Assembly: GCA_026169045.1 (NCBI GenBank)
Contig: JAPFDH010000081.1
Location: 1 to 43,618 of the forward strand
DNA: 43,618 bases
Source of the DNA: Lachnospiraceae bacterium
GTDB lineage: Bacteria > Bacillota > Clostridia > Lachnospirales > Lachnospiraceae
Direction: 5' to 3'
Shown in pieces: positions 29,572 to 43,618 of this stretch. The notes below the pieces were generated by a model. That model was not told the origin of the DNA, made no database searches, and saw only the letters and a list, made by a program, of their open reading frames with translations. A program made the translations under genes and the position numbers. Position 1 is the first letter of the stretch, and each line of letters begins with the position of its first letter.

Positions 29572-29627
29572 CCGTGATAAAGGAAGACAGATTTTGTAAA
29601 ATAGCATTGTAATTACTTCTCAAAGGA

Positions 29628-29742: not shown

Positions 29743-29744
29743 AA

Positions 29745-29842: not shown

Positions 29843-29872
29843 TTTATGTACTATGGAAAAGGAGAGACGCCT

Positions 29873-31363
29873 ATGCTGAATTTATTAAAACAGGAAGCAA
29901 ATATGACATTTACAGAAAATGGTGCTGTTACATACGAAACCAGCGGTTCCGATTGTATGGATTTATTTGCATCCATTGGTGCACTCAGACGAGAAAGCGA
30001 TGATGAAATAATTGCTCGTTTTGTTCGTGCATATACAGAAAATGCAGATATGGCAATGAAGCTTCTTTTCTTTGCCCGGGACATTAGAGGCGGATTAGGT
30101 GAGCGACGTGTGTTTCGTACCATTCTTACATGGCTTGCTGAAAATAAACCGGATTCCGTAAAAAAGAATATGTATTATGTCGCAGAGTATGGTCGCTATG
30201 ATGATTTGTTGGTTCTTCTGGATACGCCCTGTGAGAAAGAAATGCTTTCCATACTTCAAACGCAGTTTGAAAAAGACATGGAAGCGGTTGGAAAGAATGA
30301 AACGGTATCCCTATTGGCAAAGTGGTTGCCGTCAGTAAACGCATCCAATCAACAGACGATTCGAAAGGCAAAAAAAATTGCAAAGGCATTTGGTATGACG
30401 GATGCCGTTTACCGAAAAGCAATTACAGCACTTCGGGCAAGAATACATATTATCGAGAATAATCTTCGCCAAAAGGATTATTCTTTCGATTATGAGAAAC
30501 AGCCGTCCCGGGCGATGTTTAAATATAGGAAAGCATTCTTAAGAAATGATCGGGAAAGATATAGCGAATTTCTTACAAAAGTCAGTTCGGGTGAAGCAAA
30601 ACTCCATACTGACAATATATCTCCATATGAATTGGTTGAGCCATATCTGATAACCGATTGGGATTGGAATTCATCATCTTTTATGCGTGGCATTTCTCCG
30701 GAAGAGAAAGCTGCTTTGAATGCAACATGGAATGCGTTGCCGGATTTCGGAAGCAAAGAGGATGCGATTGCAATTATTGATACATCAGGGTCCATGTATT
30801 GTGACAGCAAGCCAATTCCGGCCGCTATTGCATTATCATTGGGATTATATTTTGCAGAACACAATAAAGGAAGGTTTAGAAATCATTTTATTGAGTTTTC
30901 AGCAAGGCCACAGTTGCTTGAAATAAAAGGTGAAACTTTTGCAGACCGTCTTCGTTACATAACAACATTTAATGAGATGGCAGATACAAATCTTGAAGCG
31001 GTATTTGATCTGATTCTGAACGCAGCCGTGAAGAATAGAATCCGTCAGGATGAAATGCCTGCTAAACTAATTATTCTTTCTGATATGGAGTTTAATTCCT
31101 GTGTGAAAAATGCTTCAGAAAGCAATTTTAATAGTGCAAAGAAAAAGTACACTGCGAAAGGGTATAAGCTTCCGGAAATCATTTTTTGGAACGTTGCCAG
31201 CAGAAACAGACAACAGCCGGTAACCATGAATGAGCAAGGTGTTGTACTGGTTTCTGGTGTGACACCGAGAATTTTTGAGATGGTTGCCGGAGGTAAGCTT
31301 TCTCCATATGCGTTTATGTTGGAAGTATTGGAAAGTGAGCGCTATGCTAAGATAGCAGCATAG
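29873..31363 (+). CDS. Ro60-like protein: TROVE/DUF2828-like N-terminal region plus C-terminal von Willebrand A domain with intact MIDAS
   Basis: MIDAS DTSGSM (IAIIDTSGSMY) with downstream T and LIILSD. N-terminus NGAVTYETSGSDCMDLFASIGAL, FARDIRGGLGERR. Start ATG 29873 after AAAAGGAGAG. Confidence 0.55.
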   Translation: MLNLLKQEANMTFTENGAVTYETSGSDCMDLFASIGALRRESDDEIIARFVRAYTENADMAMKLLFFARDIRGGLGERRVFRTILTWLAENKPDSVKKNMYYVAEYGRYDDLLVLLDTPCEKEMLSILQTQFEKDMEAVGKNETVSLLAKWLPSVNASNQQTIRKAKKIAKAFGMTDAVYRKAITALRARIHIIENNLRQKDYSFDYEKQPSRAMFKYRKAFLRNDRERYSEFLTKVSSGEAKLHTDNISPYELVEPYLITDWDWNSSSFMRGISPEEKAALNATWNALPDFGSKEDAIAIIDTSGSMYCDSKPIPAAIALSLGLYFAEHNKGRFRNHFIEFSARPQLLEIKGETFADRLRYITTFNEMADTNLEAVFDLILNAAVKNRIRQDEMPAKLIILSDMEFNSCVKNASESNFNSAKKKYTAKGYKLPEIIFWNVASRNRQQPVTMNEQGVVLVSGVTPRIFEMVAGGKLSPYAFMLEVLESERYAKIAA

Positions 31364-31403
31364 TGCTCCTAAAAAGGAGCCTCAAAAGGGGAAGGGTGAA
31401 ACG

Positions 31404-32681
31404 ATGATAGAGATAAAAGGAAAGAGGAATACTGCAATCTGTTATACAAACGTAATAGATGATGGAGCAATCGAACAAATCCGAAGAATGTGTGATTATA
31501 ATTTGACAGAAGGAAGTCGGGTAAGAATTATGCCGGATGTACATTCTGGAAAGGGGTGTACCATCGGTACTACTATGACGGTCGTGGATAAGGTTTGCCC
31601 CAATATTGTAGGAGTTGATATAGGATGTGGTATGTATACGGTTAAGCTGGAGGACAAAAAGCTTGACTTTGAACGACTCGATGAAGTATGTCATTACATT
31701 CCGTCTGGAATGAATGTCTGGGACGGCAGAATGGAACGATTTGATCTGACAGCTCTTCGCTGTTATCGGTCTTTGAAAGACACACGAAGATTGGAACGTT
31801 CATTGGGAACGTTAGGCGGAGGAAATCATTTTATTGAGGTGGATAAGGACTCGGATGGAAACTTATACCTTATCATCCATTCCGGAAGCAGAAATCTGGG
31901 AAAACAGGTAGCAGAAATTTACCAACAGCTTGCGATCGATCTTCATACTGGTAAGGAGGATTATTTTTCCAGACGTGATGCAATTATCTGTTCTTTTAAA
32001 GCAGAAGGACGACGATCTGAGATACAAAATGCATTGAAAGAGCTGGAAAAAGAGTATACGTCACAAGTACCGGATGTCCCGGAAGATCTTTGCTGGTTAT
32101 ATGGTTCCTTTTTAGAGGATTATCTTCATGATGTGGGAATTTGTCAGAGATTTGCCAGAAGAAACAGAGAACGCATGGCAGAAATTATAGTAGAACGAAC
32201 CGGAATGAGGGATGCAGAGGCGTTTCATACGGTTCATAACTATATTGATACAAAGGAAAGGATTCTTCGAAAAGGTGCTATTGCAGCCCATATCGGAGAA
32301 AAGGTATTGATTCCAATTAATATGCGTGATGGTTCTATTCTTGCTGTAGGAAAAGGAAATCCTGAATGGAATTATTCCGCGCCCCATGGAGCCGGACGAG
32401 TTATGTCAAGATCAATGGCTAAACAAACCATAAATATGGATACATATCGGGAATCGATGAAAGGTATCTATACAACATCAGTAAATGAAAGTACTATTGA
32501 TGAATCTCCAATGGTTTATAAATCATTGGAAGATATTATTGATGTTATTGGCGAATCGGTAGAAATCATTGATATGATCAAGCCCATATACAATTTCAAA
32601 GCGGCAGATGATGATTCTACATGGAGGAAAAGAAAACGGTTGACTGGGGAGAACGAAATGGGGCCGTTGCAAAATAGATGA
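31404..32681 (+). CDS. rtcB: RtcB-family RNA 3'-phosphate/2',3'-cyclic phosphate ligase
   Basis: RtcB metal/GTP-site motifs GGGNHFIEV, PDVHSGKGC and SAPHGAGR. SD GGGGAAGGGTG. Confidence 0.85.
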   Translation: MIEIKGKRNTAICYTNVIDDGAIEQIRRMCDYNLTEGSRVRIMPDVHSGKGCTIGTTMTVVDKVCPNIVGVDIGCGMYTVKLEDKKLDFERLDEVCHYIPSGMNVWDGRMERFDLTALRCYRSLKDTRRLERSLGTLGGGNHFIEVDKDSDGNLYLIIHSGSRNLGKQVAEIYQQLAIDLHTGKEDYFSRRDAIICSFKAEGRRSEIQNALKELEKEYTSQVPDVPEDLCWLYGSFLEDYLHDVGICQRFARRNRERMAEIIVERTGMRDAEAFHTVHNYIDTKERILRKGAIAAHIGEKVLIPINMRDGSILAVGKGNPEWNYSAPHGAGRVMSRSMAKQTINMDTYRESMKGIYTTSVNESTIDESPMVYKSLEDIIDVIGESVEIIDMIKPIYNFKAADDDSTWRKRKRLTGENEMGPLQNR

Positions 32682-32730
32682 GTAATCATCTATGGAGCAA
32701 CGGCCCCATCGGCATCTTCCCTTTTTTCAA

Positions 32731-33237
32731 TTACATATTCCAATATTTTTTTGCTTCGTCTTCAAAAACTTTCTCAGCGTGATAATCACCATTATAGTGG
32801 GCTGTTCTGGATGCTTCATAATATTCCCGTGCCTTTTCCTTTTTCCAGTCCCACTGTCGTGCCCGTTCTGCTTCTTCCCGTTTTCGCTTTTGATTTTGAT
32901 ACATCATTTCTTGTACGATACAGTCTCGTATTAAAGCTTTTTTCTGCGCTTTTTCCTTTTTAATATCTTCTTTGGTGGGCTGCGGTGTGAAAAGGTTATC
33001 GTATTCTTCTTTTTCCACGACACTGCGAACCCATCGCATAGTCATATAGGCAGAAAGAGAAAATAAAATGATATCACCGACTTTTGTATGTAATAAAAAA
33101 TTATTTAAAAAGTAGATATTTGATGTAATTAGTCCTAGTATGGTACACAATATCAGAAATACAATGATAAATCGCCATATGAATTTTATTGGATGACATA
33201 TGGATGATAGTATTAAAGATTTACGATACCCGTACAT
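32731..33237 (-). CDS. Small membrane protein, paralog A (3 TM plus charged aromatic-rich C-terminal tail ending KYWNM)
   Basis: Start ATG (minus strand) at 33237 after GGAGGTG. Aligns along its length with the 34136..34630 product (ICHPI, WxRxVVExxEMY/EY, MMY, R.AHY.GD, KW.NM). Confidence 0.6.
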   Translation of the reverse strand: MYGYRKSLILSSICHPIKFIWRFIIVFLILCTILGLITSNIYFLNNFLLHTKVGDIILFSLSAYMTMRWVRSVVEKEEYDNLFTPQPTKEDIKKEKAQKKALIRDCIVQEMMYQNQKRKREEAERARQWDWKKEKAREYYEASRTAHYNGDYHAEKVFEDEAKKYWNM

Positions 33238-33535
33238 AATAACACCTCCGAATATATAGTTTGCACAATCTTTGATAAATAAGTGATCCAAATGTAATAA
33301 TAAGATATCTGGAGTATACAGTCAATACCGTGAAGATACTACATAGGAATCAATTATTTTTTATGACATGCATACGTTACATTGTCGAATAAAAACCATA
33401 TAGAATAATTGAAATGTACATGAAACAATCATAGAAGAATTTAAAGAAGCGATTATAAATACATTTATTTCAAAAAGAAGATAAAAGTAGTATAATAGAA
33501 TCAACGTCATGTTGAACTTTTGGGAGAGGATTTTA

Positions 33536-33877
33536 ATGAATAAATGTAAATATTGTGGTAAAAAGATATATGATGATTCTTTTTTCTGTTGTAATCAATG
33601 TGAAATCAATTATAAAGAAATAACTAGAAAAGATAATCGTAATATTGGATATTTTATAGCTGGAATTATTATTGGTTTTTTGATTATGTTTTGCGGTGTT
33701 TTATTCAATAACAATTTTGTGATAGGGATAGGGATTATGTTAATGGGTAGTATCATCCTTTTACTGCCTTTTACTACTCCTGAAACAATTGCTTTTTTAG
33801 GATATTATAAGTCAAAAATTATAGGAAGAATACTGGGGATATTGATGATTGTAGTTGGAATATGGGTAATTTTATAG
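33536..33877 (+). CDS. Zinc-ribbon (CxxC...CxxC) small membrane protein
   Basis: CKYCGKK...CCNQCE followed by two or three TM helices. SD GGGAGAGGA. Confidence 0.55.
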   Translation: MNKCKYCGKKIYDDSFFCCNQCEINYKEITRKDNRNIGYFIAGIIIGFLIMFCGVLFNNNFVIGIGIMLMGSIILLLPFTTPETIAFLGYYKSKIIGRILGILMIVVGIWVIL

Positions 33878-34135: not shown

Positions 34136-34630
34136 ATGCGCTGGCATAGACAGTCTATACTCGTTTCAACAATCTGTCATCCTATAACATCGTTGCTTCG
34201 TTTTGGTATGGCATACTTTATATTTTTGATAATTATCACAGTGCTCTCACGGTTTATACCTTTCTTTGCTGTATTTATATATACAAAAATAGGTACGACG
34301 ATACATATAGTACTTTCTATCGTTGTAGGAATGTTATGGGCGAGAAAAGTTGTAGAAGACAAAGAGATGTATGGTTATAATGATTATAAACCATCACCTG
34401 AGTTGAAAGAACAGTGGCGGCGAGAGAATCAAAGAATGTTTAATGAACATATGATGTATAAGGAAATGGAACGAAGAGCGAAAGAGGAAGAAGCTGCAAG
34501 ACAAAGACAACAGTACTACGATAACCTCGCACAATCTGCGTATTGGAAGTCGCGAGATGCTCATTATCGTGGAGACTCTGCTTCTGAAAACTACTATCAC
34601 GATGAGTATCGAAAATGGAAAAATATGTAG
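34136..34630 (+). CDS. Small membrane protein, paralog B (same family as 32731..33237)
   Basis: SD GGAGGTG. Paralogous to the divergent upstream gene. Confidence 0.6.
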   Translation: MRWHRQSILVSTICHPITSLLRFGMAYFIFLIIITVLSRFIPFFAVFIYTKIGTTIHIVLSIVVGMLWARKVVEDKEMYGYNDYKPSPELKEQWRRENQRMFNEHMMYKEMERRAKEEEAARQRQQYYDNLAQSAYWKSRDAHYRGDSASENYYHDEYRKWKNM

Positions 34631-34668
34631 AAGAAAAAAGGAAATGCTGACTTGGAAAGGTATTTACT

Positions 34669-34690
34669 GTGTAGCAACTACACTATTTTT
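34669..34690 (+). terminator. Rho-independent terminator
   Basis: GTGTAG-CAA-CTACAC plus TATTTTT. A second hairpin GGCAGTACTCT...AGAGTATTGCC lies near 34720-34750. Confidence 0.5.
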
Positions 34691-34852
34691 GAAAGAACTT
34701 TGATATAAAAGAACGTAAGCGGCAGTACTCTTAAACAGAGTATTGCCGTTTGCAGCATATGGATAAATAGATTTCTAAGTAAATATCTATGCGTTATAAA
34801 GTGACGAAAGACGCTGAAAACAGTTACTCATTATTTCGTATGTTGAAAATAA

Positions 34853-35014
34853 TGTCGCCACACCTATTGTTCCAATATGGCAAAAAGTGGTATAACCCCA
34901 AAAAATTTGCAGTATCTTATGGGTCATGCTGATGTAGGAATGACCTTAAATATTTGTACATATCTGGGATATGAGGATGTGAAAGAAGAGGTAAGAAAAA
35001 TATGTAATCTCTGA
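34853..35014 (+). pseudogene. 3' remnant of a Tn916-family tyrosine integrase (C-terminal 54 codons only)
   Basis: Translation CRHTYCSNMAKSGITPKNLQYLMGHADVGMTLNICTYLGYEDVKEEV matches the C-terminus of the intact integrase at 42056..43297 (CRHTFCSNMAKSGMNPKTLQYIMGHSDISVTLNVYTHVGFEDAEKEM). No upstream continuation. Confidence 0.75.
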
Positions 35015-35185
35015 AGTATGAAAATGTATTACTGGAATTTACTACTTACTGAGATAAATTTATTACTTTTTTACTACTTTTGAGGTCAAAGATATGCTAA
35101 AATATGCCAGAGAAATAAAAAAACAAAAAAGCTGAAAATCCTTTAAAAATCAAGGAAATACGCAGAAAATAAGGAGTTTTTGGAT

Positions 35186-35221
35186 ATGATAAAAATACTT
35201 TTTGTGTGCCACGGCAGGTGA
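35186..35221 (+). other. Truncated mini-ORF MIKILFVCHGR* (N-terminus of an LMW-PTP/ArsC-like protein) inside the left att-like unit
   Basis: SD AAGGAG plus ATG. Near-identical mini-ORF MIKVLFVCHGTL* at 43458-43496 in the right att-like unit. Confidence 0.5.
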
Positions 35222-35277
35222 TGCATTGAGCACTGCAAACTCTTTAAAATCAAGGATTTTTTAAAATACGACTTGAA

Positions 35278-35297
35278 TTTACGACACTTTTACGACA
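35278..35297 (+). repeat. Arm-type direct repeats (TTTACGACA x2), left arm
   Basis: GAATTTACGACACTTTTACGACAGAT. Matches GAATTTACGACAGAATTTACGACAGAT at 43308-43328 and degenerate TTTACTAC copies at 35036-35085. Confidence 0.55.
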
Positions 35298-35336
35298 GAT
35301 AAAGCCAGGCTATGATAAACGTGTTATATTATAACA

Positions 35337-36296
35337 ATGTGGGGGGGGAGTATTACGAAGATTGAAGATTTAGTGATAAAAATGCCAACAGAGGAAATCG
35401 ATGAAAAGGATTGGAATCTTGAAGAATGGAAACAAAAGTATCCGATGGATTACTATAAAGCTTTGCGAATTTTGTCAGAAGCGAGTAACGGAGTTGTTGC
35501 TACAGAGATTTTTAAAGCTATATACCAAATAACACGTTTGCATGTACCTGATGTTTTGTTCAAATATTATTCATTGTCAAATGATGAGGAATTAAATAAG
35601 AAAAAATTTCAAACCTTAAGTGAGGGAAAACTTTTTATGTCAGAGATTAAGGATTTTAACGATCCATTTGATGGTAAAAGTTTTTTCTACAATCCAAAAA
35701 GATTGGAAGATATCGATAGGTTACGTGTTCATAAAGGAAGATTGATAGATGATTTTACTGTGTTTATAAGGGGAACATGTTTTACAGCTAATGGAGTTCA
35801 GTCAATGCCGATGTGGGCTCATTATGCCAACAATCATAAAGGTTTTTGTGTTTCTTATGATGTAAAAGAAAATTTGGGACTCAAAAGTAATATATTCCCG
35901 ATACAATATACAGAAGAAAGGCTAGACGTAACTGCATTGATGCGTAAGCATGCAGAATTAATTTGCGATAAAATTGATGAAAATATACGACGAGGAGAAA
36001 AGATAACGCAATATGATGATTTGACAATAATTTATATGGCATTATTACTATATAATGTTAAGCATATATCGTGGAATTATGAGAATGAATTCAGATATTT
36101 TGTGCCATCAAATGCAAGTGGGATTCCATATGCTAAAGCGATTCCTAGAGCAATTTACATAGGAATGAATTGCGAGGAAAGACACAAAAAAGCACTAGAA
36201 GATATAGCAGACTATTGGGATGTTCCTTTGTATCAAATGGGAATGGATGAATGTTCAGAAAAATATGAATTAGTTGCAACTAGAATGCGGAGCTGA
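35337..36296 (+). CDS. DUF2971-family protein
   Basis: LFKYYSL...LSEGKLFMSEIKDFNDPFDG matches the DUF2971 core (KY.SL...fNDPfE). Start codon uncertain (G-rich SD GGGGGGGGAG with no nearby ATG; possibly GTG 35376 or ATG 35382). Confidence 0.55.
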   Translation: MWGGSITKIEDLVIKMPTEEIDEKDWNLEEWKQKYPMDYYKALRILSEASNGVVATEIFKAIYQITRLHVPDVLFKYYSLSNDEELNKKKFQTLSEGKLFMSEIKDFNDPFDGKSFFYNPKRLEDIDRLRVHKGRLIDDFTVFIRGTCFTANGVQSMPMWAHYANNHKGFCVSYDVKENLGLKSNIFPIQYTEERLDVTALMRKHAELICDKIDENIRRGEKITQYDDLTIIYMALLLYNVKHISWNYENEFRYFVPSNASGIPYAKAIPRAIYIGMNCEERHKKALEDIADYWDVPLYQMGMDECSEKYELVATRMRS

Positions 36297-36761
36297 TAGC
36301 GTAGAATGTAACATAAAAAATACGGTACGTGATGCAAGTTTAGAAGCTACATTATACGAGCATCAGAAAAAGATTAAGTGCATCGAAAAAATATACTTGT
36401 AATCATTTCTAAAGACATACTATATACAGGAAGCGTATTATTATATGAAATAGAAGAAGCCCTTGATGTTTAGGAAATGTGTTTTCCTATTGTATATCCG
36501 GAATCTAGTTTTAGGTGATCATCTTTGGCATTATCTGGTTGATGTGAATGAACAGGCACTAGCAAGATTGAATATGCTCGTGAAACTGATACAGGAAGTA
36601 GAGTGTATGATGGAAATTAAAGGTCATTGGTAATAGATTTGAAGGATGAAAAATATTTGTAACAGGCTGGAAGAAATTGTGATAATATTTTTTACACAAG
36701 GGAATGAAAGTAATAAACGATTTATGGGGCTACAAAACTACGTTAAAAGAAATAGAGGAAA

Positions 36762-38213
36762 ATGATGATCAAAATTATAAAATGCAAGCAATGGCGGGCA
36801 CGAAAGAATACAATAGTACTTCATTATGACAACTGGGATGATTATGGATATAAGACAACATATCGTATTAATTATTATGATAAAGATGGAAATTCTGTTT
36901 GGGAAAGTAGTATTCAAATTTATTGTACAAGATTGGATGAAGACGGTTCCGGAGGAGGCAAGGTAGATGAATATTTACCAAGTGAAATTGCAAAATTGGA
37001 TGATTCATTCTGTTCACTTGGTTGTGACATGAATTTTTATTCGGGATTAAAAAAAGCTTTGCCAAAAGATTATTTGGATATTTTAAACAGATTAAATGAT
37101 TTGGCCTATAATGAAAAACGATGGAATCAATTCAAGAAATATACCGGAGTCCAAAAGTCGCTATTAAGATCTAGTAGTTCAATTAAAGCAAGAGAAGAAG
37201 CATTCGCTATATTAGAAAATAATTTTATTAAAGAAAAAAATCTTTCTTTTTCGTATAGAACTCGTATTCCATATAGTGATATCATAGTTTCATTGAATTT
37301 TTTGTTTAATAAAAAGGCGGATCTTCCACATAGAATCAACGCAATTGTGGGAAAAAACGGAACGGGTAAAACACATATTCTTAATAATTTAGCAGAAGAT
37401 TTGAGCGGTTTCAAACTTGAAGAATTTGATGATAATGCATTTGAAAGAGGGAAAAGGCCATCTTTTGATAAAGTGATTTCTGTATCTTACAGTGCATTCG
37501 ATCCATTTAAGAAATTGAAAGGCCAAAATTCATTGAATAGTTATGTTTATTGTGGAATACAATCAGAAAAAGGCACATTGAAACTTAACGAGATACAAGA
37601 TAATTTTTGGAAGTCTTTAGAAACTATAAAGAAAAGGGATAGATACGAACAGTGGAAAAGAATAATTACAGAGTTATTTGCTGAAGAGAATTATAATATA
37701 ACTTCACAAATTGATGAATCTAGAATGAGAGATATTAATTGGAGCTCTGGACAAAATGTATTAATATCGTCTATGACAGAGGTTGTTGCAAAAATTGATA
37801 AGGAATCAATTATTCTATTTGATGAACCAGAACTACATCTTCATCCAAATGCTATAGCGAATGTTATGCGAATGTTTAATAAAATTCTTGAAGAATTTAA
37901 TTCATACGCAATTATAGCGACACACTCGCCGATTATTTTGCAAGAGATTCCTTCTAATAATATTATTGTATTAGAAAGAATTGATAACCAGCCCTTTGTC
38001 AGGAGACCTGAAATCGAGTGCTTCGGCGAAAACATTTCGCTCATTACTAGAGATATTTTTGATGTAACTAGTAAGGAAAGTTATTATCAAGCCTTTTTTT
38101 TAAAAATGAAGGAAACTGGAAAAACAAAAGAACAAATAGAAAAATTGTTTGAGTATAATTTGGGATTAAATGCACTTATTTATCTGGAAACATTATACAA
38201 GCAGGAGAAATGA
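36762..38213 (+). CDS. ptuA: Septu PtuA-like ABC-type (AAA_15/21) ATPase
   Basis: Walker A IVGKNGTGKTH. Walker B/D-loop ILFDEPELHLHPN (DEPExHLHP signature of OLD/PtuA/GajA-class ATPases). Final TGA overlaps the ATG of the next gene. Confidence 0.55.
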   Translation: MMIKIIKCKQWRARKNTIVLHYDNWDDYGYKTTYRINYYDKDGNSVWESSIQIYCTRLDEDGSGGGKVDEYLPSEIAKLDDSFCSLGCDMNFYSGLKKALPKDYLDILNRLNDLAYNEKRWNQFKKYTGVQKSLLRSSSSIKAREEAFAILENNFIKEKNLSFSYRTRIPYSDIIVSLNFLFNKKADLPHRINAIVGKNGTGKTHILNNLAEDLSGFKLEEFDDNAFERGKRPSFDKVISVSYSAFDPFKKLKGQNSLNSYVYCGIQSEKGTLKLNEIQDNFWKSLETIKKRDRYEQWKRIITELFAEENYNITSQIDESRMRDINWSSGQNVLISSMTEVVAKIDKESIILFDEPELHLHPNAIANVMRMFNKILEEFNSYAIIATHSPIILQEIPSNNIIVLERIDNQPFVRRPEIECFGENISLITRDIFDVTSKESYYQAFFLKMKETGKTKEQIEKLFEYNLGLNALIYLETLYKQEK

Positions 38214-38951
38214 ATGATTAATTACATAGAAAACACAGAAATAAATGATGAAGGTGTATTCAAAGACATAATAAAATATAAGCACGAACCTGGAAAAACA
38301 AAATTAAAAGATTGTAAAAAAGAAATTTTTGAAGATTATTTAATTTATAAACAAAATTCCTGTGCCCTTCAGAAAGTTATACCTGATATTCGTATACCTG
38401 ATGAATCTAAAAAAGAACTGATTAAAACATATAACAGTAATCCAAGTGCTTTGCAAAAATCTAAGTTGATGATAAAGAAAAATTTATCTAACATATTGAG
38501 AGCAAAATGTCCCTATTGTTTAATTTCTGCGCATAGCACATTTGATCACTATTTGGACAAGTCTAAGTATCCAGAATATGCATTGTTTTCAAGCAATCTT
38601 ATTCCATCATGTGCGGAGTGCAATTCTTTGAAAAGTGATTTTTTATGTGATAGTAAAGGCAATAGATTATTTATTAATTTTATTTTTGATGAGCTTCCTG
38701 CTTATCCGTTTTTAAAGTATATTCTTTCTATAGAAGGAGAGAAAATTGTACTTAAGAAAGTATATCTAGATTTTGATGATAATGAACCTAAAAAACAAAT
38801 AATCAAAAATCATTTTAAAAAATTAAAGTTAATTCCTCGACTTGAAGACCAATTTGATGTTGCTATATCCACGATTATAGAAGAATTTCATGAATATAAC
38901 TATAGTACTCGAGAGGTAAAGGAAGTCTTGACAAAAAAAATGAGGGCTTAG
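38214..38951 (+). CDS. ptuB: Septu PtuB-like HNH endonuclease
   Basis: His-Me finger / HNH: CPYCLISAHSTFDHYLDKSKYPEYALFSSNLIPSCAECNSLKSD (CxxC...DH...N...CxxCN). Confidence 0.55.
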   Translation: MINYIENTEINDEGVFKDIIKYKHEPGKTKLKDCKKEIFEDYLIYKQNSCALQKVIPDIRIPDESKKELIKTYNSNPSALQKSKLMIKKNLSNILRAKCPYCLISAHSTFDHYLDKSKYPEYALFSSNLIPSCAECNSLKSDFLCDSKGNRLFINFIFDELPAYPFLKYILSIEGEKIVLKKVYLDFDDNEPKKQIIKNHFKKLKLIPRLEDQFDVAISTIIEEFHEYNYSTREVKEVLTKKMRA

Positions 38952-39354
38952 GAGAAGACACGAGGAATTAATAATTGGGAAACTTGTATCTTGCGAGCTA
39001 TCATTCAGAATAATGAAGTGTTACAGTATTTGAGCAAAAATGAAAAATAGATAAATCGAAATATTAGTAAATATAATGGGAATGTAATATCATAAATTAA
39101 AAGGATTTAAAAACCTCTGAAATGCCTATAAGAAATGGTGTTCCAGGGGTTTTTGTGTCCTTGGATAAGCACGCAAAGTATCGTAAATTACCAAATTTTA
39201 TGTATTAGTTTAGAGAATAGCTTGATTTTCAATTACCTGATTTTTTGATCCAGACTACGATATAAATGCCATATTTTGGATACTTTTTGCGGGAACGATT
39301 ATGAAATTGGAGATGCTATGATTAATTGGTAAAACACAAGAAGGAGGTATTAAC

Positions 39355-40521
39355 ATGGCATCAATCGTTCAACGTAACAAAAGCTTTAGCGTAGTTTACA
39401 ATATTTACGATGGAGACAAGAAAAAACAAAAGTGGGAGACCTATCATTCTTATAAAGAGGCTCTACATCGAAAAGAGCAAGTAGAGATCATTTATCAGAA
39501 GAAACAGCTGAAATATCGTTCAGGAACTCTGGCACAGTTTTTGAATGAATATGTGGAACTATATGGGCACGTTCATTGGGCTTGCTCCACCTATAGCAGC
39601 AATACAGCGCTGATTCGGAATTATATTATTCCGTTCTTTGGAACCATGCAACTTCATGAGTTTAGTCCCAAAGTGATTGCAGTAATCTATAGTCAACTAC
39701 AAAGAAATCCGAAAATCACGCCACAGCTTATGAATAATATTCATAAACTATTACATAGTGCATTTGAACAAGCTGTACTATGGGAATATCTAGATTACAA
39801 TCCTTTCAAAAAAGCCAATCTTCCGAAAATATATTCGCAGGGGATTGCAATGCTGTCCTTGGATCAGATTAGAATACTATTGCAAAATTGCACGGAGCCG
39901 ACGCTAACGTTAGCTGTTCACTTAGCTTTTTCGGGTTCTTTACGAAAGGGAGAAATTTTAGCTCTTACTTGGATTGACATAGACTTCGATAAGGGGACGG
40001 TGTCGGTCAGCAAATCCTTGAAGCGTATCCGAAAGGATGCTGTCCAGGTGCTAAACGGTAAAGACATTCTTTATCAATTTCCGGCTATATTTGATGAAGG
40101 GCGTACCGTTGTTGTATTGAAACGGCCAAAAACTCATGCCAGTGTCCGGACGGTGTATTTACCGGAATATGTAATGAATCTGCTTTGGAACGTAAAGAAA
40201 GAACAAAGAGCTTTAAAAAGAGGAATACCGGAGCTTGTTTTACGTTATGGAAATGGAAGACCTCTTCAAGAAGAAACGCTTCCTCGTTTGTTGGAAAAAC
40301 AGCTGCTAGCGCTTGGGCTTCCCAAAGTTACTTTCCATAGCTTGCGTCACAGTAGTATAACATATAAATTAATACTTACTGGTGGAAACATCAAAGCAGT
40401 TCAAGGTGATTCTGGTCACGCACAGGCGGAGATGATCACAGAACGTTATGGTCATATTATTGATTCTTGCCGCAAGCAGTGTTCAAAAGATTTTGAAGAA
40501 GACTTTTATAAGAGCCTGTAA
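39355..40521 (+). CDS. Tyrosine-type site-specific recombinase/integrase with AP2-like N-terminal arm-binding domain
   Basis: N-terminus KSFSVVYNIYDGDKKKQKWETYHSYKEA (Arm-DNA-binding-like). C-terminal catalytic residues HSLRHSSIT...ERYGHI (R..H..R..Y). SD AAGGAGG. Confidence 0.8.
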   Translation: MASIVQRNKSFSVVYNIYDGDKKKQKWETYHSYKEALHRKEQVEIIYQKKQLKYRSGTLAQFLNEYVELYGHVHWACSTYSSNTALIRNYIIPFFGTMQLHEFSPKVIAVIYSQLQRNPKITPQLMNNIHKLLHSAFEQAVLWEYLDYNPFKKANLPKIYSQGIAMLSLDQIRILLQNCTEPTLTLAVHLAFSGSLRKGEILALTWIDIDFDKGTVSVSKSLKRIRKDAVQVLNGKDILYQFPAIFDEGRTVVVLKRPKTHASVRTVYLPEYVMNLLWNVKKEQRALKRGIPELVLRYGNGRPLQEETLPRLLEKQLLALGLPKVTFHSLRHSSITYKLILTGGNIKAVQGDSGHAQAEMITERYGHIIDSCRKQCSKDFEEDFYKSL

Positions 40522-40525
40522 AATG

Positions 40526-40555
40526 AGTCGTCTGATGAAAATCAGGCGACTTTTT
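40526..40555 (+). terminator. Rho-independent terminator after integrase 1
   Basis: AGTCGTCTGA...TCAGGCGACT plus TTTTT. Confidence 0.7.
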
Positions 40556-40834
40556 ACAGTAGGATGGAACATCTCCCTCCTAAGGATATGGAGTATCGTT
40601 TGAATTTAGTCCAGTTAGCAAAACAGGAGGTAAAAGTTTGAAACAAATAAGTAGAGGACTTTGGAAGAGATAAGTTTACGGGATACGTTATGCGCCACTC
40701 ACATCCACGTGTCTTGTAGTGTGTCAGTCTAATTAAAGAAATCATATCAGAAGGCAATAGGAATAGAAACGCGAAAGTAGCACAACGGCTTTCATGACGC
40801 ATTTGTGCCTTTCGCAGAAAGGCGGAAAATAAAT

Positions 40835-41623
40835 ATGATAAAATTCACTAAACTTCATGATTTGGCTGCATATTTGAAGCAAGCAGCCGGCACATATCTT
40901 CAGTATGATTATGAATTTCTATATCAGGAACTCCGTGCAAGATATGAACAACAGGTTATGGAGGCATTTTGGGAAAAACATCCGGGATGGAGTATCGTAA
41001 CAGACGATGCTGCCTGCTATATGTATTTATTTCGAAACTGGTCGTTAAGTAAAGAAGCAACCCAAAATGCCCGCCAGTTTATAGATCTTGCAAAAGATCT
41101 TTTTGAAAATTATGTAGAGTGTAGAGAATTATTCTTTACCACAAATATGGTGGAGAATGTTATGCGAGTTGTTGAACAGGTATATGATTTTTCAAAATAT
41201 GTTCTGAAAAATAGGCATATGTTTATTTTCTTGTTTCCATCAAAATATCGGTATGAAGATTCATTTTGCCGTTGCTTTAAAGGAAAAAATGATATGAATT
41301 ATGCAGACATTTATATACTGACTCCAAAGAAAGATAATCAAGCTACTCCGCAAAGCATTCTACTACATGAGCTAGGACATATGGTTAATTTGGTGTTGAC
41401 TGGTGATGTAGGTAAACTACCGGAAGATTTTGCGGTAATTACATCATTATTAAATCTGAACTTTAATAAAAATGACCAAAATGAATTCTTTGCTCACTGT
41501 TTTGCCATGAGTTTACTAAGTGAAACGGAGCTTGTTCCATTTGACCCGTTCCCTATGGTGCCCCAAACACATAAAATCCTATTTCGTTTCTATTTCACAT
41601 ATAAAATCAACAATCTTAAGTGA
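40835..41623 (+). CDS. Hypothetical protein with HExxH motif (putative zinc metallopeptidase; ImmA/IrrE-like motif HELGH)
   Basis: LLHELGHMVNL. Start ATG 40835 preferred over GTG 40805. A hairpin GCCTTTC-GCAG-GAAAGGC overlaps the weak SD. Confidence 0.5.
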   Translation: MIKFTKLHDLAAYLKQAAGTYLQYDYEFLYQELRARYEQQVMEAFWEKHPGWSIVTDDAACYMYLFRNWSLSKEATQNARQFIDLAKDLFENYVECRELFFTTNMVENVMRVVEQVYDFSKYVLKNRHMFIFLFPSKYRYEDSFCRCFKGKNDMNYADIYILTPKKDNQATPQSILLHELGHMVNLVLTGDVGKLPEDFAVITSLLNLNFNKNDQNEFFAHCFAMSLLSETELVPFDPFPMVPQTHKILFRFYFTYKINNLK

Positions 41624-41717
41624 CTTGCCAAAGAAAGCAGGTCACTTTTCTTTTGAAGACGGACAGGCAAAAAAACAGAATTTCGGTACATACGACAAAA
41701 AAAGGAGGTAATTGCCT

Positions 41718-41951
41718 GTGATAAAAGAAAGAGAAGTTGTTCATACAGATAAATACGAGATTCCGGTGTGGCGGAAGTATACCTTAAGTGTACAGGAAGC
41801 GGCCAAATATTTTCGTATTGGAGATAAAAAACTGAAAAAACTGATCGATGAAAATCCGAATGCCGAGTTCATTCTCTGGAATGGATCACGTCCTCAGATT
41901 AAGCGGAAATTGTTTGAGCAGTTTATTGACGAAAAATTATCTGCCATATAA
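41718..41951 (+). CDS. xis: Excisionase, Xis-Tn916 family
   Basis: IPVWRKYTLSVQEAAKYFRIGDKKLKKLIDENPNAEFILWNGSRPQIKRKLFEQFID closely parallels Tn916 Xis ([28 protein letters not shown]...IQIKRKQFEKIID). GTG start after AAAGGAGGT. Confidence 0.8.
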   Translation: MIKEREVVHTDKYEIPVWRKYTLSVQEAAKYFRIGDKKLKKLIDENPNAEFILWNGSRPQIKRKLFEQFIDEKLSAI

Positions 41952-42055
41952 ACGAAAAAAGTACACGATGGATTCAGAGCCGGGTTTATGGTATGATAGA
42001 TGCGTATCATAGCTTGGCTCTTTTCTATGGCAGGCAGATAGAAAGGAGAAATGGA

Positions 42056-43297
42056 ATGTCAGAAGTAAGAAGGGACCATAAAGGCCGGAAATTACTTATG
42101 GGAGAGAGTCAGCGGAAAGACGGGAAATATGAATACAAGTATCAGGATGCACGTGGCAAAAGAAAGACGGTGTACAGTTGGAGACTGACTCCTTCAGACC
42201 GGATGCCGGCAGGAAAACGTAATGATATTTCCTTAAGAGAAAAAGAAAAACAGATTCAGAAGGATTTAAACAGCAATATCATACCGGATGGCGGTGATTA
42301 TACAGTCTTGGATCTTGTAGAAAAGTATATCCGGACGAAGACAGGCGTTCGCCATAATACTAAAGCAAATTATAAGTTTGTGATTAATGTGATCAAGAAA
42401 GAGGCATTTGGTCAGAAGCGTATCGATAAAGTCAAAGTATCGGACGCGAAAGAGTGGCTGATTAAAATGCAGCAGATGGACGGGCGTGGCTACAGTTCCA
42501 TACATACGATCCGAGGCGTTGTAAGACCGGCTTTTCAGATGGCGGTGGATGATGATTTACTGATAAAGAATCCTTTTGAGTTTCAGCTTAATACGGTTGT
42601 CGTGAATGACAGTGTCACAAGAAATGCTCTGACACCAAAGCAGGAAAGAGACTTTTTAGAGTTTGTAAAGAATGATAAGCATTTCAGCAAATATTATGAT
42701 GGAATTTATATTCTGTTTAAAACCGGGCTCCGTATTTCAGAATTTGTTGGGTTAACAAAGAAAAATCTGGATTTTGAGAACAACAGGATTATTGTGGATC
42801 ATCAGTTGCAAAGGACAAGAGACATGAGGTATCTCATTGAGGATACCAAAACAGAAAGCGGTATGCGAATGGTTCCTATGACACCGGAAGTCAAGGAGTG
42901 TTTTCAGAACATTCTTGCCAACAGAAAGAAACCAAGGATTGAGCCGATGGTCGATGGGTATAGCGGATTTCTGTATCTGGACAAAAATGGGAAGCCTATG
43001 GTGGCGTTGCACTGGGAAAAGTATTTCCAGCATATTCGTGAGAAGTACAACAAAATGTACAGAGTACAGATGCCGCTTGTTACGCCACATGTTTGTAGGC
43101 ATACCTTTTGCAGCAATATGGCCAAGTCAGGAATGAATCCAAAGACGCTGCAATACATTATGGGGCATAGTGATATTTCGGTAACACTGAATGTTTATAC
43201 ACATGTAGGATTTGAAGATGCGGAGAAAGAAATGCAAAGATTAACAGATACAAAGTCTGAGAAGTCTACGGCGTACCGTAAAATATCTGTGTCGTAA
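42056..43297 (+). CDS. int: Tyrosine integrase, Int-Tn916 family
   Basis: N-terminus MSEVRRDHKGRKLLMGESQRKDGKYEYKY (Tn916 Int MSEKRRDNRGRILKTGESQRKDGRY...). Catalytic C-terminus HVCRHTFCSN...LQYIMGHSDISVTLNVYTHV. Start ATG 42056 after AAAGGAG; the track ORF starts earlier without an SD. Confidence 0.85.
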   Translation: MSEVRRDHKGRKLLMGESQRKDGKYEYKYQDARGKRKTVYSWRLTPSDRMPAGKRNDISLREKEKQIQKDLNSNIIPDGGDYTVLDLVEKYIRTKTGVRHNTKANYKFVINVIKKEAFGQKRIDKVKVSDAKEWLIKMQQMDGRGYSSIHTIRGVVRPAFQMAVDDDLLIKNPFEFQLNTVVVNDSVTRNALTPKQERDFLEFVKNDKHFSKYYDGIYILFKTGLRISEFVGLTKKNLDFENNRIIVDHQLQRTRDMRYLIEDTKTESGMRMVPMTPEVKECFQNILANRKKPRIEPMVDGYSGFLYLDKNGKPMVALHWEKYFQHIREKYNKMYRVQMPLVTPHVCRHTFCSNMAKSGMNPKTLQYIMGHSDISVTLNVYTHVGFEDAEKEMQRLTDTKSEKSTAYRKISVS

Positions 43298-43307
43298 ATC
43301 TTTTGAA

Positions 43308-43328
43308 TTTACGACAGAATTTACGACA
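43308..43328 (+). repeat. Arm-type direct repeats (GAATTTACGACA x2), right arm, 11 nt after the int stop
   Basis: Perfect tandem 12-mer repeat seen in the sequence. Confidence 0.55.
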
Positions 43329-43618
43329 GATGATGGCTAAAATAAGCAGATTTATGCGAAGTTATACTGTTATAAGATGAAAATGCCTCTGCCGCGGAAA
43401 TGCCGGAAAGTGGCGTAAAATCAAGGGAAATCAGCATTTTAAAGGAGTTTAAGAGATATGATAAAAGTTTTGTTCGTGTGCCACGGCACTCTTTGAAGAA
43501 CTCCTTAAAAAGTCAGTAAAATCAATACTTGGAAGGTATTTGTGTGGAAGAAATAACCCGAAAATAACCCATAGATTTTTGTGTGAGTGTTACAAGATAA
43601 ATAATTATAATTTAGGGA

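What the first reader, a model, noticed from the sequence alone, without database searches (positions are those of the whole stretch)
35142..43525. Tn916-family xis/int integrative element lacking conjugation genes but carrying DUF2971, a Septu-like ATPase+HNH pair, a second integrase and an HExxH protein
The right end encodes a close Xis-Tn916 homolog and an Int-Tn916 homolog transcribed toward the element end, as in Tn916. Cargo is AT-rich and looks defence-oriented. It contains DUF2971. It contains a 483-aa ABC-type ATPase (Walker A GKNGTGKT; DEPELHLHP) coupled to a 245-aa HNH nuclease, which is the architecture of Septu PtuA/PtuB. It also has a second tyrosine recombinase with an AP2-like arm-binding N-terminus and its own terminator, and an HExxH protein just upstream of xis. 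No relaxase, coupling protein or T4SS genes are present, so this is a small integrative (possibly mobilisable) island. The internal integrase suggests a composite of two elements, or a recombinase guarding a sub-module.
Basis: partly seen in the sequence, partly recalled or inferred. Interest (0 to 1): 0.7.

Follow-up and report, generated by a model that had tools for sequence, protein, structure and literature searches.

The report
Site-specific defence island beside a phosphatase gene
This is an 8.3-kb mobile island that uses a Tn916-type integrase to insert at the very start of a phosphatase gene in gut Clostridia and carries anti-phage genes; it is a new example of a known kind of element, at an insertion hotspot I found no description of, and it contains one unexplained conserved gene module.

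Summary
All seven genes are as described (Pfam, PADLOC, PDB). No conjugation genes occur in the element or anywhere in the window.

The true ends are 35217 and 43488, not 35142 and 43525. The element inserts into the first 31 nt of a low-molecular-weight phosphatase gene (LMWPc), after ...TGCCACGGCA, inside the codons of the catalytic CX5R loop. It brings its own RBS, ATG and ten codons, so the gene is rebuilt. Conspecific contigs show the empty site, and other strains carry different defence cargo there (QatABCD, restriction-modification, Fic).

In about 63 of 80 related integrase loci across Clostridia, an intact LMWPc gene lies just downstream. About 13 show tandem arrays.

The window itself is a tandem array: a fossil integrase fragment, then this element, then the left end of a relaxase-bearing mobilizable element.

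The PtuB-like nuclease carries a premature stop (W246*).

The "second integrase" belongs to a conserved trio: integrase, a tRNA-Arg(CCU)-derived recombination site, and an M34-like metallopeptidase. About 30 other elements with different terminal recombinases carry the same trio. Its function is unresolved.

Verdict: new member of a known kind (site-specific integrative defence island). Moderate interest.

The parts
34845..35015 (+). Fossil: C-terminal ~53-codon fragment of an older Tn916-type integrase (CRHTYCSNMAKSGITPKNLQYLMGHADVGMTLNICTYLGYEDVKEEVRKICNL*)
   Evidence: Translation. It is similar to the C-terminus of the intact Int. Empty-site strains L008/L011 keep part of it, but 34874-35060 is absent there.
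35036..35077 (+). Arm-type repeats of the fossil element (AATTTACTAC, TTTTTACTAC)
   Evidence: They occupy the same position after the integrase stop as AATTTACGAC does after the intact int.
35146..35216 (+). attL, chromosomal side: TAAAATCAAGG box, RBS, ATG (35186) and the first 10 codons of the LMWPc gene (MIKILFVCHG), ending in the core GTGTGCCACGGCA (35204-35216). The reading frame now stops at 35219-35221.
   Evidence: Direct repeat D1. Empty site L008/L011 continues ...CACGGCA|ATATTTGCCGTTCG into an intact 157-aa LMWPc gene.
35217..35330 (+). Left arm of element B: GGTGATGCATTGAGC..., TAAAATCAAGG box (35246), arm-type sites AATTTACGACAC (35276) and TTTTACGACAG (35287)
   Evidence: The same left end follows CACGGCA in L003, L009, L018, L019 and L021, each behind a different chromosomal context.
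35337..36296 (+). DUF2971 protein (PADLOC candidate single-gene defence PDC-S31)
   Evidence: Also present in L003-L005 and L019.
36762..38213 (+). Septu-like ABC ATPase (PtuA-like; Walker A GKNGTGKT, Walker B ILFDEPELHLHP)
   Evidence: PADLOC PDC-M01A 4.9e-145; PtuA PDLC00282 1.4e-79. Pfam AAA_21/AAA_15. Identical protein in L003-L005.
38214..38951 (+). Septu-like HNH nuclease (PtuB-like), truncated by the nonsense codon TAG at 38949-38951 (W246*); its start abuts the ATPase stop
   Evidence: PDC-M01B 9e-48; PtuB 1.6e-12; PF01844. Orthologues are 278 aa and differ by G->A at 38950.
39355..40521 (+). int2: second tyrosine integrase (phage type), catalytic motifs present by eye
   Evidence: PF00589 + PF14659; phrog_1 1e-50. 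Homologues at 39-74% identity always lie directly upstream of the peptidase gene in about 30 other loci.
40556..40625 (+). tRNA-Arg(CCU)-derived recombination site next to int2; anticodon-loop core CCTCCTAAG at 40576-40584
   Evidence: Unique in the window. Intact tRNA-Arg(cct) at the same spot in L111, L113, L120 and L122. Arrays of 2-3 cores with mixed half-sites in L108, L110, L113, L124 and L126. Similarity shared with serine-recombinase elements ends at 40623.
40835..41623 (+). Cytoplasmic M34/ATLF-like zinc metallopeptidase (HELGH ... EFFAH), 262 aa
41718..41951 (+). xis (Tn916-type excisionase)
   Evidence: PF09035 5e-26; PDB 1Y6U 4e-21; conserved upstream of int in nearly all 80 relatives.
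42056..43297 (+). int (Tn916/Tn1549-type tyrosine integrase, 413 aa)
   Evidence: PF02920 + PF00589; 6EMY 1.7e-91; 1B69/2BB8 ~1e-21; exact protein on record in L001/L002.
43290..43488 (+). Right arm of element B / attR: arm-type sites GTCGTAAA (43291, inverted) and AATTTACGACAG (43306, 43318); GCGTAAAATCAAGG box (43415); RBS; ATG 43459 + 10 codons (MIKVLFVCHG); core GTGTGCCACGGCA 43476-43488
   Evidence: Alignment of 20 relatives. In L002 this end is joined to ...|ATATATGCCGTTCG = NICRS, an intact P-loop.
43489..43618 (+). Left end of a second, different element (C) in tandem; its arm-type repeats AAATAACCC are at 43552 and 43563
   Evidence: 96-100% identical to the left end of an element found behind four different contexts in IMG/VR contigs. 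The complete copy in L137 is a 9.4-kb IME with a MobA/MobL relaxase, its own Xis/Int and LMWPc downstream.

Best explanation
Window 35217-43488 is an 8,272-bp site-specific integrative island, here called element B.

Shown:
- Its Tn916/Tn1549-family Int and Xis recombine a core, ...GTGTGCCACGGCA, that lies in the first 31 nt of a low-molecular-weight phosphatase gene (LMWPc). The cut falls within the codons for the catalytic C-X5-R loop.
- The element's right arm carries its own ribosome-binding site, ATG and ten codons (MIKVLFVCHG). Integration therefore rebuilds an intact gene.
- Because the site is regenerated, elements pile up in tandem. The window contains a fossil integrase fragment with its arm sites (34845-35077), then element B, then the left end of a relaxase-bearing IME (element C, from 43489).
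- The three use the same core but different arm-type repeats: TTTACTAC (fossil), TTTACGAC (B) and AAATAACCC (C).
- B's cargo is a DUF2971/PDC-S31 gene and a Septu-like ATPase + HNH pair whose HNH gene has a premature stop.
- B encodes no relaxase.

Inferred:
- The upstream spacer in the right arm also supplies a promoter for the rebuilt gene.
- The different arm-site sets let each resident excise on its own.
- The cargo is anti-phage.
- B's horizontal spread depends on helpers. The most plausible routes are co-excision or cis-mobilisation with a neighbouring relaxase-bearing IME such as C, or an unrecognised oriT used in trans.

The internal block int2 / tRNA-Arg(CCU)-like site / M34-like peptidase is a separate conserved module. 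It was acquired or exchanged by recombination at that site, and its role is open.
For: Junctions:
- attR joined to an intact P-loop in L002. attL with a native promoter in another species in L003.
- Empty site with a 157-aa LMWPc gene in conspecific L008 and L011, 98% identical in the flank.

Family-wide specificity:
- About 63 of 80 loci encoding Int relatives (71-98% identity) have a full-length LMWPc gene 150-350 nt downstream on the same strand.
- Where the site could be read (about 75 of the 80 loci) the supplied gene start ends in TG[CT]CA[CT]GGCA or a near variant; in the 20 right arms aligned, CACGGCA is invariant. About 13 of the 80 show tandem-type junctions.

Variable defence cargo at the same attL:
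- QatABCD + MmeI (L009).
- Fic, type I RM, GmrSD (L010).
- OLD/GajA-like ATPase (L018).
- Fic/SoFic and a Panacea-domain gene (L019, L021).

Protein identities.

Wider family: Mob_Pre relaxase or primase/VapE modules in relatives, and no T4SS module among the annotated recurrent families.

Element C.

Arm sites.

Literature: integration of tyrosine-recombinase IMEs at gene 5' ends, tandem accretion with decayed elements, and relaxase-less mobilizable islands are all described (PMC5704250).
Against: - No circular form or excision junction for B itself was seen. Mobility is inferred from presence/absence polymorphism and from identical elements in different contexts.
- The window ends 130 nt into element C, so whether C is complete here is unknown.
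- No oriT was identified in B.
- The PtuB-like nuclease is truncated, so the Septu-like system may be inactive in this strain.
- Defence function rests on profile matches only. PDC-M01 and PDC-S31 are PADLOC candidate families, and the NCBIfam PtuA/PtuB equivalog cut-offs are far from met.
- Promoter activity of the right arm is not shown. The promoter scan is no better than shuffled sequence.
Confidence: 0.85

Rival explanations
1. Element B is a composite of two elements. A [cargo + int2] element has integrated through int2 into a tRNA-like site carried by a minimal [peptidase-xis-int] element.
For: - int2 sits next to a tRNA-Arg(CCU)-derived site, and related loci show multiple recombination scars at the same core.
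- L018 is L101-like to the left of the core (int2 91% aa identity) and window-like to the right (96% nt identity).
- DNA similarity to serine-recombinase elements ends at the right edge of the site.
Against: - No second copy of the core or of any part of the site exists in the window or in about 30 related loci, so no far end can be found.
- int2, the site and the peptidase gene are always contiguous and never split.
- The leftmost cargo (DUF2971-PtuAB) occurs without a visible int2 in L003-L005, up to the contig ends, and DUF2971 occurs without int2 in L019.
Confidence: 0.3
2. It is the decayed remnant of a Tn916-like conjugative element (ICE) that lost its conjugation module by deletion.
For: Int and Xis are clear Tn916/Tn1549-family proteins, placed and oriented as in Tn916.
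Against: - The four closest relatives with both ends visible are all 3.6-8.6 kb and share the same conserved left arm.
- In about 50 loci with upstream sequence, the recurrent modules are MobV relaxase, primase/VapE and defence genes. No T4SS or coupling-protein families were among the annotated recurrent clusters.
- Int is strictly site-specific, unlike Tn916/Tn1549 (PMC8138268).
Confidence: 0.05
3. It is a phage satellite or prophage remnant rather than a conjugatively mobilised island.
For: - Element C-type contigs are filed in IMG/VR.
- Relatives carry primase + VapE-like modules reminiscent of satellites.
- DUF2971 matches a PHROG family.
Against: - B has no capsid, terminase, packaging or phage-regulation genes.
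- Relatives carry relaxases (Mob_Pre, MobA/MobL), which points to conjugative mobilisation.
Confidence: 0.05
4. The island is a now-immobile, degenerating insertion in this strain. It is real but functionally dead.
For: - Nonsense codon in the PtuB-like gene.
- It lies between a fossil and another element.
- One relative (L021) has a frameshifted int and no xis.
Against: - Int, Xis and both arms are intact, and 96-100% identical copies occur in other samples and species (L001, L002, L018).
- Empty and filled sites coexist in one species at 98% flank identity.
Confidence: 0.1

Closest known systems
Tn916 / Tn1549 recombination module (Int-Tn916 subgroup of arm-binding tyrosine recombinases, with Xis-Tn916)
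   Same: - Same three-domain Int: Tn916-type arm-binding domain, core-binding domain and catalytic domain. 6EMY E=1.7e-91; 1B69 E~1e-21.
- Same Xis fold family (1Y6U, E=4e-21).
- Same xis-then-int order, transcribed toward the element end.
- TTTAC(N)AC-type repeats directly after int, as in a Tn916-like tet(M) element (L132).
   Different: - Strictly site-specific for the 5' end of LMWPc, with a 13-nt identity block. Tn916 and Tn1549 insert into AT-rich DNA without strict specificity (PMC8138268).
- No conjugation, regulation (orf7/8/9) or tet genes.
- About 45-50% identity to enterococcal Tn916-family integrases.
Site-specific integrative and mobilizable elements (IMEs) and relaxase-less mobilizable genomic islands of Bacillota, including tandem accretion with decayed elements (CIME/IME/ICE accretion)
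   Same: - Tyrosine integrase + excisionase.
- Integration at the end of a housekeeping gene without disrupting it.
- Flanking repeat containing the gene end.
- Tandem arrays with decayed and unrelated elements.
- Some members lack a relaxase (PMC5704250).
- Relatives of B carry MobV or MobQ relaxases.
   Different: - I found no description of the 5' end of an LMW phosphatase gene as a target in the searchable library.
- 5'-end targets are the rarer case.
- The cargo in this family is predominantly anti-phage systems rather than resistance genes.
Septu (PtuA ATPase + PtuB HNH nuclease) anti-phage system; PADLOC candidate PDC-M01
   Same: - Two adjacent genes: a ~480-aa ABC/AAA_15-21 ATPase followed by a ~280-aa HNH nuclease.
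- Full-length match to PADLOC PtuA model PDLC00282 and to PtuB models.
- PDC-M01 calls overlap Septu calls in practice (PMC11811056).
   Different: - Best matches are to the PDC-M01 candidate models, not the founding Septu models.
- Similarity to solved PtuA structures is limited to the C-terminal ABC region (E~4e-7).
- NCBIfam retron-type PtuA/PtuB cut-offs are not met.
- No reverse transcriptase or msr/msd.
- The nuclease here lacks its last 33 residues.
tRNA-targeting phage/ICE integrases with anticodon-loop attachment sites (for int2), and M34 zincins (anthrax lethal factor, Pro-Pro endopeptidases) for the HExxH protein
   Same: - int2 is a phrog_1-type integrase lying next to a tRNA-Arg(CCU)-derived sequence, with the anticodon loop as the recurrent crossover core.
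- The peptidase has HExxH plus a Glu 35 residues downstream in an EFFAH motif, and its best fold matches are PPEP-3 and lethal factor.
   Different: - The site is internal to another integrative element and single-copy.
- The integrase and peptidase genes always flank it.
- The peptidase has no signal peptide, a ~130-residue helical N-terminal domain and no Pfam family. Known M34 enzymes are secreted toxins or proteases.

Membership tests
Int-Tn916 subgroup tyrosine integrase with Xis-Tn916 | N-terminal Tn916-type arm-binding domain plus catalytic domain with the RKHRH-Y residues | tested here: met
   PF02920 7e-31 and PF00589 2e-30. 6EMY 1.7e-91 and 1B69/2BB8 ~1e-21. TGLRISE, HVCRHTF and GHSDISVTLNVYTH motifs read in the sequence.
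Int-Tn916 subgroup tyrosine integrase with Xis-Tn916 | Cognate Tn916-type excisionase immediately upstream of int | tested here: met
   PF09035 5e-26; 1Y6U 4e-21.
Tn916/Tn1549 conjugative transposons (ICEs) | Conjugation module (MobT relaxase, FtsK-like coupling protein, VirB4-like ATPase and others) | tested here: not met
   None of the seven ORFs, nor any other ORF in the window, matches such families. The small sister elements lack them too.
Tn916/Tn1549 conjugative transposons (ICEs) | Low target specificity (AT-rich sites, variable coupling sequences) | tested here: not met
   About 63 of 80 relatives sit at the same position of the same gene, next to an invariant CACGGCA in the aligned right arms. 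The Tn916/Tn1549 behaviour is taken from PMC8138268.
Integrative and mobilizable element (canonical IME) | [quoted passage not shown] | tested here: met
   attL, attR and attB reconstructed from the window, L002, L003 and L008.
Integrative and mobilizable element (canonical IME) | Own relaxase and/or oriT | tested here: not met
   No relaxase family in B. An oriT cannot be recognised with these tools. Relatives have Mob_Pre, and the neighbouring element C type has MobA/MobL.
Septu (PtuA/PtuB) | PtuA-family ATPase adjacent to a PtuB-family HNH nuclease | tested here: met
   PADLOC PtuA PDLC00282 1.4e-79 (13-512 of 520) and PtuB PDLC00342 1.6e-12. Best hits are PDC-M01A/B. The genes abut at 38213/38214.
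Septu (PtuA/PtuB) | Full-length, intact nuclease subunit | tested here: not met
   W246* nonsense codon. 245 aa against 278 aa in L003/L004, and a 281-position profile.
Septu (PtuA/PtuB) | Protection against phage | not testable with these tools
   Needs phage challenge.
Retron-associated Septu (NCBIfam PtuA NF041760 / PtuB NF041761) | Score above the curated equivalog cut-off; RT and ncRNA nearby | tested here: not met
   60 bits against a cut-off of 500, and 22 against 150. No Rfam hit in 34600-43618. No RT gene.
M34 / ATLF zinc metallopeptidases | HExxH plus a downstream Glu ligand in a zincin fold; Pfam PF07737 above the gathering score | tested here: inconclusive
tRNA-integrating element (for int2) | Integrase next to a tRNA gene or fragment, with a direct repeat of the tRNA part at the far end of the element | tested here: inconclusive
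   Adjacency is met. No far-end repeat is found in the window or in relatives.

The most novel reading that the evidence does not exclude
The conserved trio int2 / pseudo-tRNA-Arg(CCU) site / cytoplasmic M34-like peptidase is a portable recombination platform. It rides inside different integrative elements, always just upstream of their terminal recombinase (Tn916-type xis-int, large serine recombinase or another tyrosine integrase).

Under this reading the element-borne pseudo-tRNA acts as a docking or exchange site. Whole cargo-plus-integrase segments are swapped between unrelated mobile elements at that site, which would make it a way of shuffling defence cargo. The peptidase would act as a regulator or partner of the recombinase.

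The arrays of anticodon-loop cores with mixed half-sites, and the flipped orientation of the site between lineages, would be the footprints of that activity.
Probability: 0.25. Interest if true: 0.75.

Novelty: new member of a known kind. Interest (0 to 1): 0.5.

Why it matters
It defines, to the base pair, an integration hotspot in gut Clostridia (Lachnospiraceae, Oscillospiraceae and others). A lineage of Tn916-family integrases drops small islands into the first codons of a phosphatase gene and rebuilds that gene.

The islands seen at this site carry a changing set of anti-phage systems: Septu-like, Qat, Gabija/OLD-like, Fic, RM and GmrSD. At least one carries a resistance-type nucleotidyltransferase.

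This has practical uses:
- It gives a simple sequence signature (ATG...TGCCACGGCA after a Tn916-type int) for finding defence islands and mobilizable elements in gut metagenomes.
- It offers a natural example of several elements sharing one core site while using different arm-site sets.
- It provides a site-specific relative of the promiscuous Tn916/Tn1549 integrases for studying what sets target specificity.

The int2 / pseudo-tRNA / peptidase module is an uncharacterised, widespread feature of these elements and is worth a dedicated study.

Tried and rejected
- The full 434-aa ORF of int gave no record. The 413-aa form from the internal Met did.
- I first took 32.7-35.2 kb (AT-rich, small membrane proteins) to be part of an older element. 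Empty-site contigs show it is chromosomal, and only 34845-35077 is a fossil.
- I looked for a second copy of the int2-adjacent site to delimit a nested element. A 23-mer with 3 mismatches, a 29-mer with 8 mismatches, blastn-short and the exact 9-mer core all found none in the window.
- Rfam on 34600-43618 gave no hit, so there is no retron ncRNA, riboswitch or recognised tRNA in the island. ARAGORN finds no tRNA in the window.
- The promoter scan was uninformative: 37 hits against 36 expected.
- ImmA/IrrE-type (M78) identity for the HExxH protein was considered and dropped. There is no Pfam, NCBIfam or PHROG match and no adjacent HTH repressor, and the fold points to M34.
- The 47-aa protein upstream of the serine recombinases is not Xis-like by sequence.
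- The divergences at 39058 (L003/L004) and 39213 (L001) initially looked like module junctions. They are better explained as insertions of a multicopy IS with terminal inverted repeats GTAAGCGC(C/A)AAATATT, which break the assemblies. I did not pursue this.
- The Tn916 DR2 arm-site sequence I recalled (GAGTAGTAAATTC) could not be confirmed in the paper library. Instead I compared with a Tn916-like tet(M) element, which has TTTACCAC repeats after int.
- Literature searches for an LMW-phosphatase att site found nothing. That does not prove absence, because subscription journals are not covered.

Full report
**What is in the region.**
- 35337-36296: DUF2971 protein, which also matches the PADLOC candidate PDC-S31.
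- 36762-38213: 483-aa ABC-type ATPase. It matches PADLOC PDC-M01A (E=4.9e-145) and the PtuA model PDLC00282 over its whole length (E=1.4e-79).
- 38214-38951: 245-aa HNH protein whose start abuts the ATPase stop. It matches PDC-M01B (9e-48) and PtuB (1.6e-12).
- 39355-40521: a tyrosine recombinase.
- 40835-41623: an HExxH protein.
- 41718-41951: a Tn916-type Xis.
- 42056-43297: a Tn916-type Int.

Against solved structures, Int matches Tn1549 Int (6EMY, E=1.7e-91) and the Tn916 Int arm-binding domain (1B69/2BB8, E~1e-21). Xis matches Tn916 Xis (1Y6U, E=4e-21). The cargo is 28-32% GC, against about 40% in the flanks. The other 35 kb of the window is ordinary chromosome (sugar ABC transporter, fucosidase-like proteins, an RtcB cluster) with no conjugation genes. 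A published comparison reports that PADLOC PDC-M01 calls are usually duplicates of Septu calls (PMC11811056).

**Exact ends and target.** A 34-nt imperfect direct repeat lies at 35183-35216 and 43455-43488. It reads RBS-ATG-MIK(I/V)LFVCHG, and both copies break off after GTGTGCCACGGCA. Contigs that encode exactly the same proteins resolve the junctions.
- L002 matches the window up to 43488 and then continues ATATATGCCGTTCG. This gives MIKVLFVCHG|NICRS, the intact C-X5-R loop of a low-molecular-weight phosphatase.
- L003-L005 are from another species. There a native promoter and MIKILFICHG are joined at the same point to the same left end, GGTGATGCATTGAGC....
- L008 (a 184-kb contig) and L011 share the window's chromosomal flank at 98% identity and have no element. 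The 164-aa gene is followed directly by an intact 157-aa LMWPc gene (PF01451).

Element B is therefore 35217-43488 (8,272 bp). Its target is the first 31 nt of the LMWPc gene. attL keeps the chromosomal variant of the ten codons and attR keeps the element's variant. Strand exchange therefore lies in, or at the 3' edge of, the shared 13-nt block.

**A family-wide property.** A scan of one genome per species with Int found 467 relatives. I examined the best 80 loci, at 71-98% identity, from Lachnospiraceae, Oscillospiraceae, Christensenellaceae and others.
- In about 63 loci a full-length LMWPc gene starts 150-350 nt downstream of int on the same strand. The protein always begins M-x-K/R-I/V-L-F-V/I-C-H-G-N-I-C-R-S.
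- In about 13 loci the element-borne gene start is followed by unrelated sequence immediately after CACGGCA, as in the window.
- Xis is conserved upstream of int almost everywhere.
- The right arm is conserved: an inverted GTCGTAAA overlapping the int stop, two AATTTACGACA repeats, a GCGTAAAATCAAGG box, then RBS and ATG.
- A Tn916-like tet(M) element has TTTACCAC repeats in the same position after its int. These are therefore most likely arm-type sites for the N-terminal domain of Int. This is an inference; my recollection of the Tn916 DR2 sequence could not be checked.

**A defence hotspot.** Different cargo sits behind the same attL.
- L009: a complete QatABCD system plus an MmeI-type enzyme.
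- L010, L013-L015: Fic proteins, type I restriction-modification and GmrSD.
- L018 (6.9 kb): an OLD/GajA-like ATPase-TOPRIM protein.
- L019 (8.6 kb): DUF2971, two Fic proteins and a Panacea-domain gene.
- L021 (3.6 kb): two Fic proteins and a frameshifted int.

Among more distant relatives the upstream content is very diverse. The recurrent modules are a CHC2 primase with a VapE-like protein, a Mob_Pre relaxase directly upstream of xis, type IIG restriction-modification enzymes, helicases and STAND NTPases. No T4SS families were among the annotated recurrent clusters. The lineage therefore consists of integrative mobilizable elements and small islands, not conjugative transposons. This matches published descriptions of IMEs: integration at 3' or, more rarely, 5' ends of housekeeping genes, tandem accretion with decayed elements, and relaxase-less members (PMC5704250). 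Within the IntTn916 subgroup most integrases are site-specific, and Tn916 and Tn1549 themselves are the non-specific exception (PMC8138268).

**The window is a tandem array.**
- *Upstream of attL.* A 53-codon C-terminal integrase fragment (34845-35015) is followed by AATTTACTAC repeats. Part of this fossil is present even in the empty-site strains, which lack only 34874-35060. In this species, therefore, the present promoter and start of the LMWPc gene themselves descend from an older element.
- *Downstream of 43488.* The sequence CTCTTTGAAGAACTCC... is the left end of a different element. Four IMG/VR contigs carry it (96-100% identical to 43489-43618) directly after CACGGCA, or CACGACA in one, each behind a different context.
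- *Element C.* A complete copy in L137 is 9.4 kb. It encodes a PF10706 nucleotidyltransferase, SSB, a MobA/MobL relaxase, a DUF3991-Toprim-AAA_25 protein and Tn916-type Xis and Int, and it is followed by an intact LMWPc gene. Int of C is 65% identical to Int of B. C's repeats are AAATAACCC (window 43552 and 43563, and again after C's int), not TTTACGAC.

Residents of the site thus share a core but differ in arm sites. I infer that this allows independent excision. The relaxase-bearing neighbour offers B a route to transfer, either by co-excision or with a conjugative helper. Neither step was observed.

**State of the cargo.** The ATPase is identical to that of L003-L005. The HNH gene has TAG where they have TGG (G->A at 38950), which removes 33 C-terminal residues while leaving the HNH motif. 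NCBIfam's retron-type PtuA/PtuB cut-offs are far from met. Similarity to solved PtuA proteins is confined to the C-terminal ABC region. There is no reverse transcriptase and no Rfam hit. The pair is best called Septu-like (PDC-M01 subfamily) and may be inactive in this strain.

In about 30 loci from unrelated elements, this gene is always directly preceded by an int2 homologue at 39-74% identity. This holds even when the peptidase is only 28-34% identical. It is always followed by the element's terminal recombinase: usually a 47-aa gene plus a large serine recombinase, sometimes another tyrosine integrase, and xis-int here and in L018.

Between the two genes lies a conserved block of about 70 nt (window 40556-40625) derived from tRNA-Arg(CCU).
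- ARAGORN finds an intact tRNA-Arg(cct) at that spot in L111, L113, L120 and L122.
- The anticodon-loop 9-mer CCTCCTAAG (40576-40584) occurs once in most loci. It occurs two or three times, joining genuine tRNA halves, pseudo-halves and a recurrent foreign arm, in L108, L110, L113, L124 and L126. Elsewhere in these loci it is essentially absent.
- The block is in opposite orientation in two groups of loci.
- L018 resembles serine-recombinase elements to the left of the core and the window to the right of it.

These features mark a site-specific recombination site for int2-type integrases. However, there is no second copy in the window or in relatives. I therefore cannot say whether it is an unused attP, a junction between elements or a docking site. 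This is the least understood and potentially most novel part of the region.

**Verdict.** The finding is real and its interpretation is essentially correct, once the ends, the target, the tandem context and the nuclease mutation are corrected. It is a new member of a known kind: a site-specific, Tn916-family integrative island with defence cargo, at a target I could not find described. I rate it of moderate interest.

Noticed in passing
window 27403-32681: Conserved chromosomal cluster of two ~300-400-aa proteins without Pfam hits (WYL-like by eye), a DUF2828/DUF7788 protein (TROVE/vWA-like) and RtcB. It looks like an RNA-repair cassette just upstream of the hotspot.
   Followed up: no
window 32731-33291 (-) and 34136-34630 (+): Two paralogous small membrane proteins with Lys/Glu-rich tails, in inverted orientation around 33509-33877 (a DUF2116-like zinc-ribbon membrane protein). 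A 23-nt inverted repeat lies at 32717-32739 / 34622-34644. All of this is chromosomal and conserved in empty-site strains.
   Followed up: partly
window 39058 and 39213; L003 12301-12396; L001 1-29: Contigs otherwise 99.7-100% identical to the window break off into sequences ending in inverted copies of GTAAGCGC(C/A)AAATATT. This probably reflects a multicopy IS inserted at two different positions between the HNH gene and int2 in other strains or samples.
   Followed up: partly
window 34874-35060: A 187-bp segment inside the fossil integrase is present in the window (and partly in L016) but absent from L008-L011 and L013-L017. It is bounded by TACTAC-type repeats, which suggests deletion between arm-type repeats.
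   Followed up: partly
L108 6753-6900; L110 9837-9960; L113 6037-6280; L124 1-140; L126 90-200: Arrays of two or three tRNA-Arg(CCU) anticodon-loop cores about 92-102 nt apart. They join genuine tRNA halves, pseudo-halves and a recurrent arm CGTAAGGC(G/A)GC(C/T)GGTAGAGCA(T/C)AAC. The whole site is inverted between lineages while the flanking genes keep their orientation.
   Followed up: partly
window 35146, 35246, 43419: A TAAAATCAAGG box occurs on both arms of element B and in the chromosomal/fossil region upstream of the phosphatase start. It is conserved in relatives with 84-98% Int identity. It is a candidate binding site (Xis, Int core-type or host factor), but nothing is assigned.
   Followed up: partly
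L025 11424-11560: A remnant gene start (MIKVLFICHGNICTL...) lies 104 nt upstream of the intact LMWPc start. This is a scar of an earlier event whose junction lies further into the gene, so the crossover or later deletion point is not always right after CACGGCA.
   Followed up: no
L137 10001-10492; L139/L140 10001-10492: The PF10706 nucleotidyltransferase (Lnu/ANT(2'')-like, 163 aa) at the left end of element C also occurs at 98% identity in unrelated 158-175-kb IMG/VR contigs, next to an ABC-F-like ATPase, a relaxase and primase/VapE genes. It is a mobile resistance-type gene moving among gut elements.
   Followed up: no
window 36463-36633: A small 55-56-aa ORF between the DUF2971 gene and the ATPase is also called as a gene in L003. 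It has no family match. Whether it belongs to the Septu-like system is unknown.
   Followed up: no
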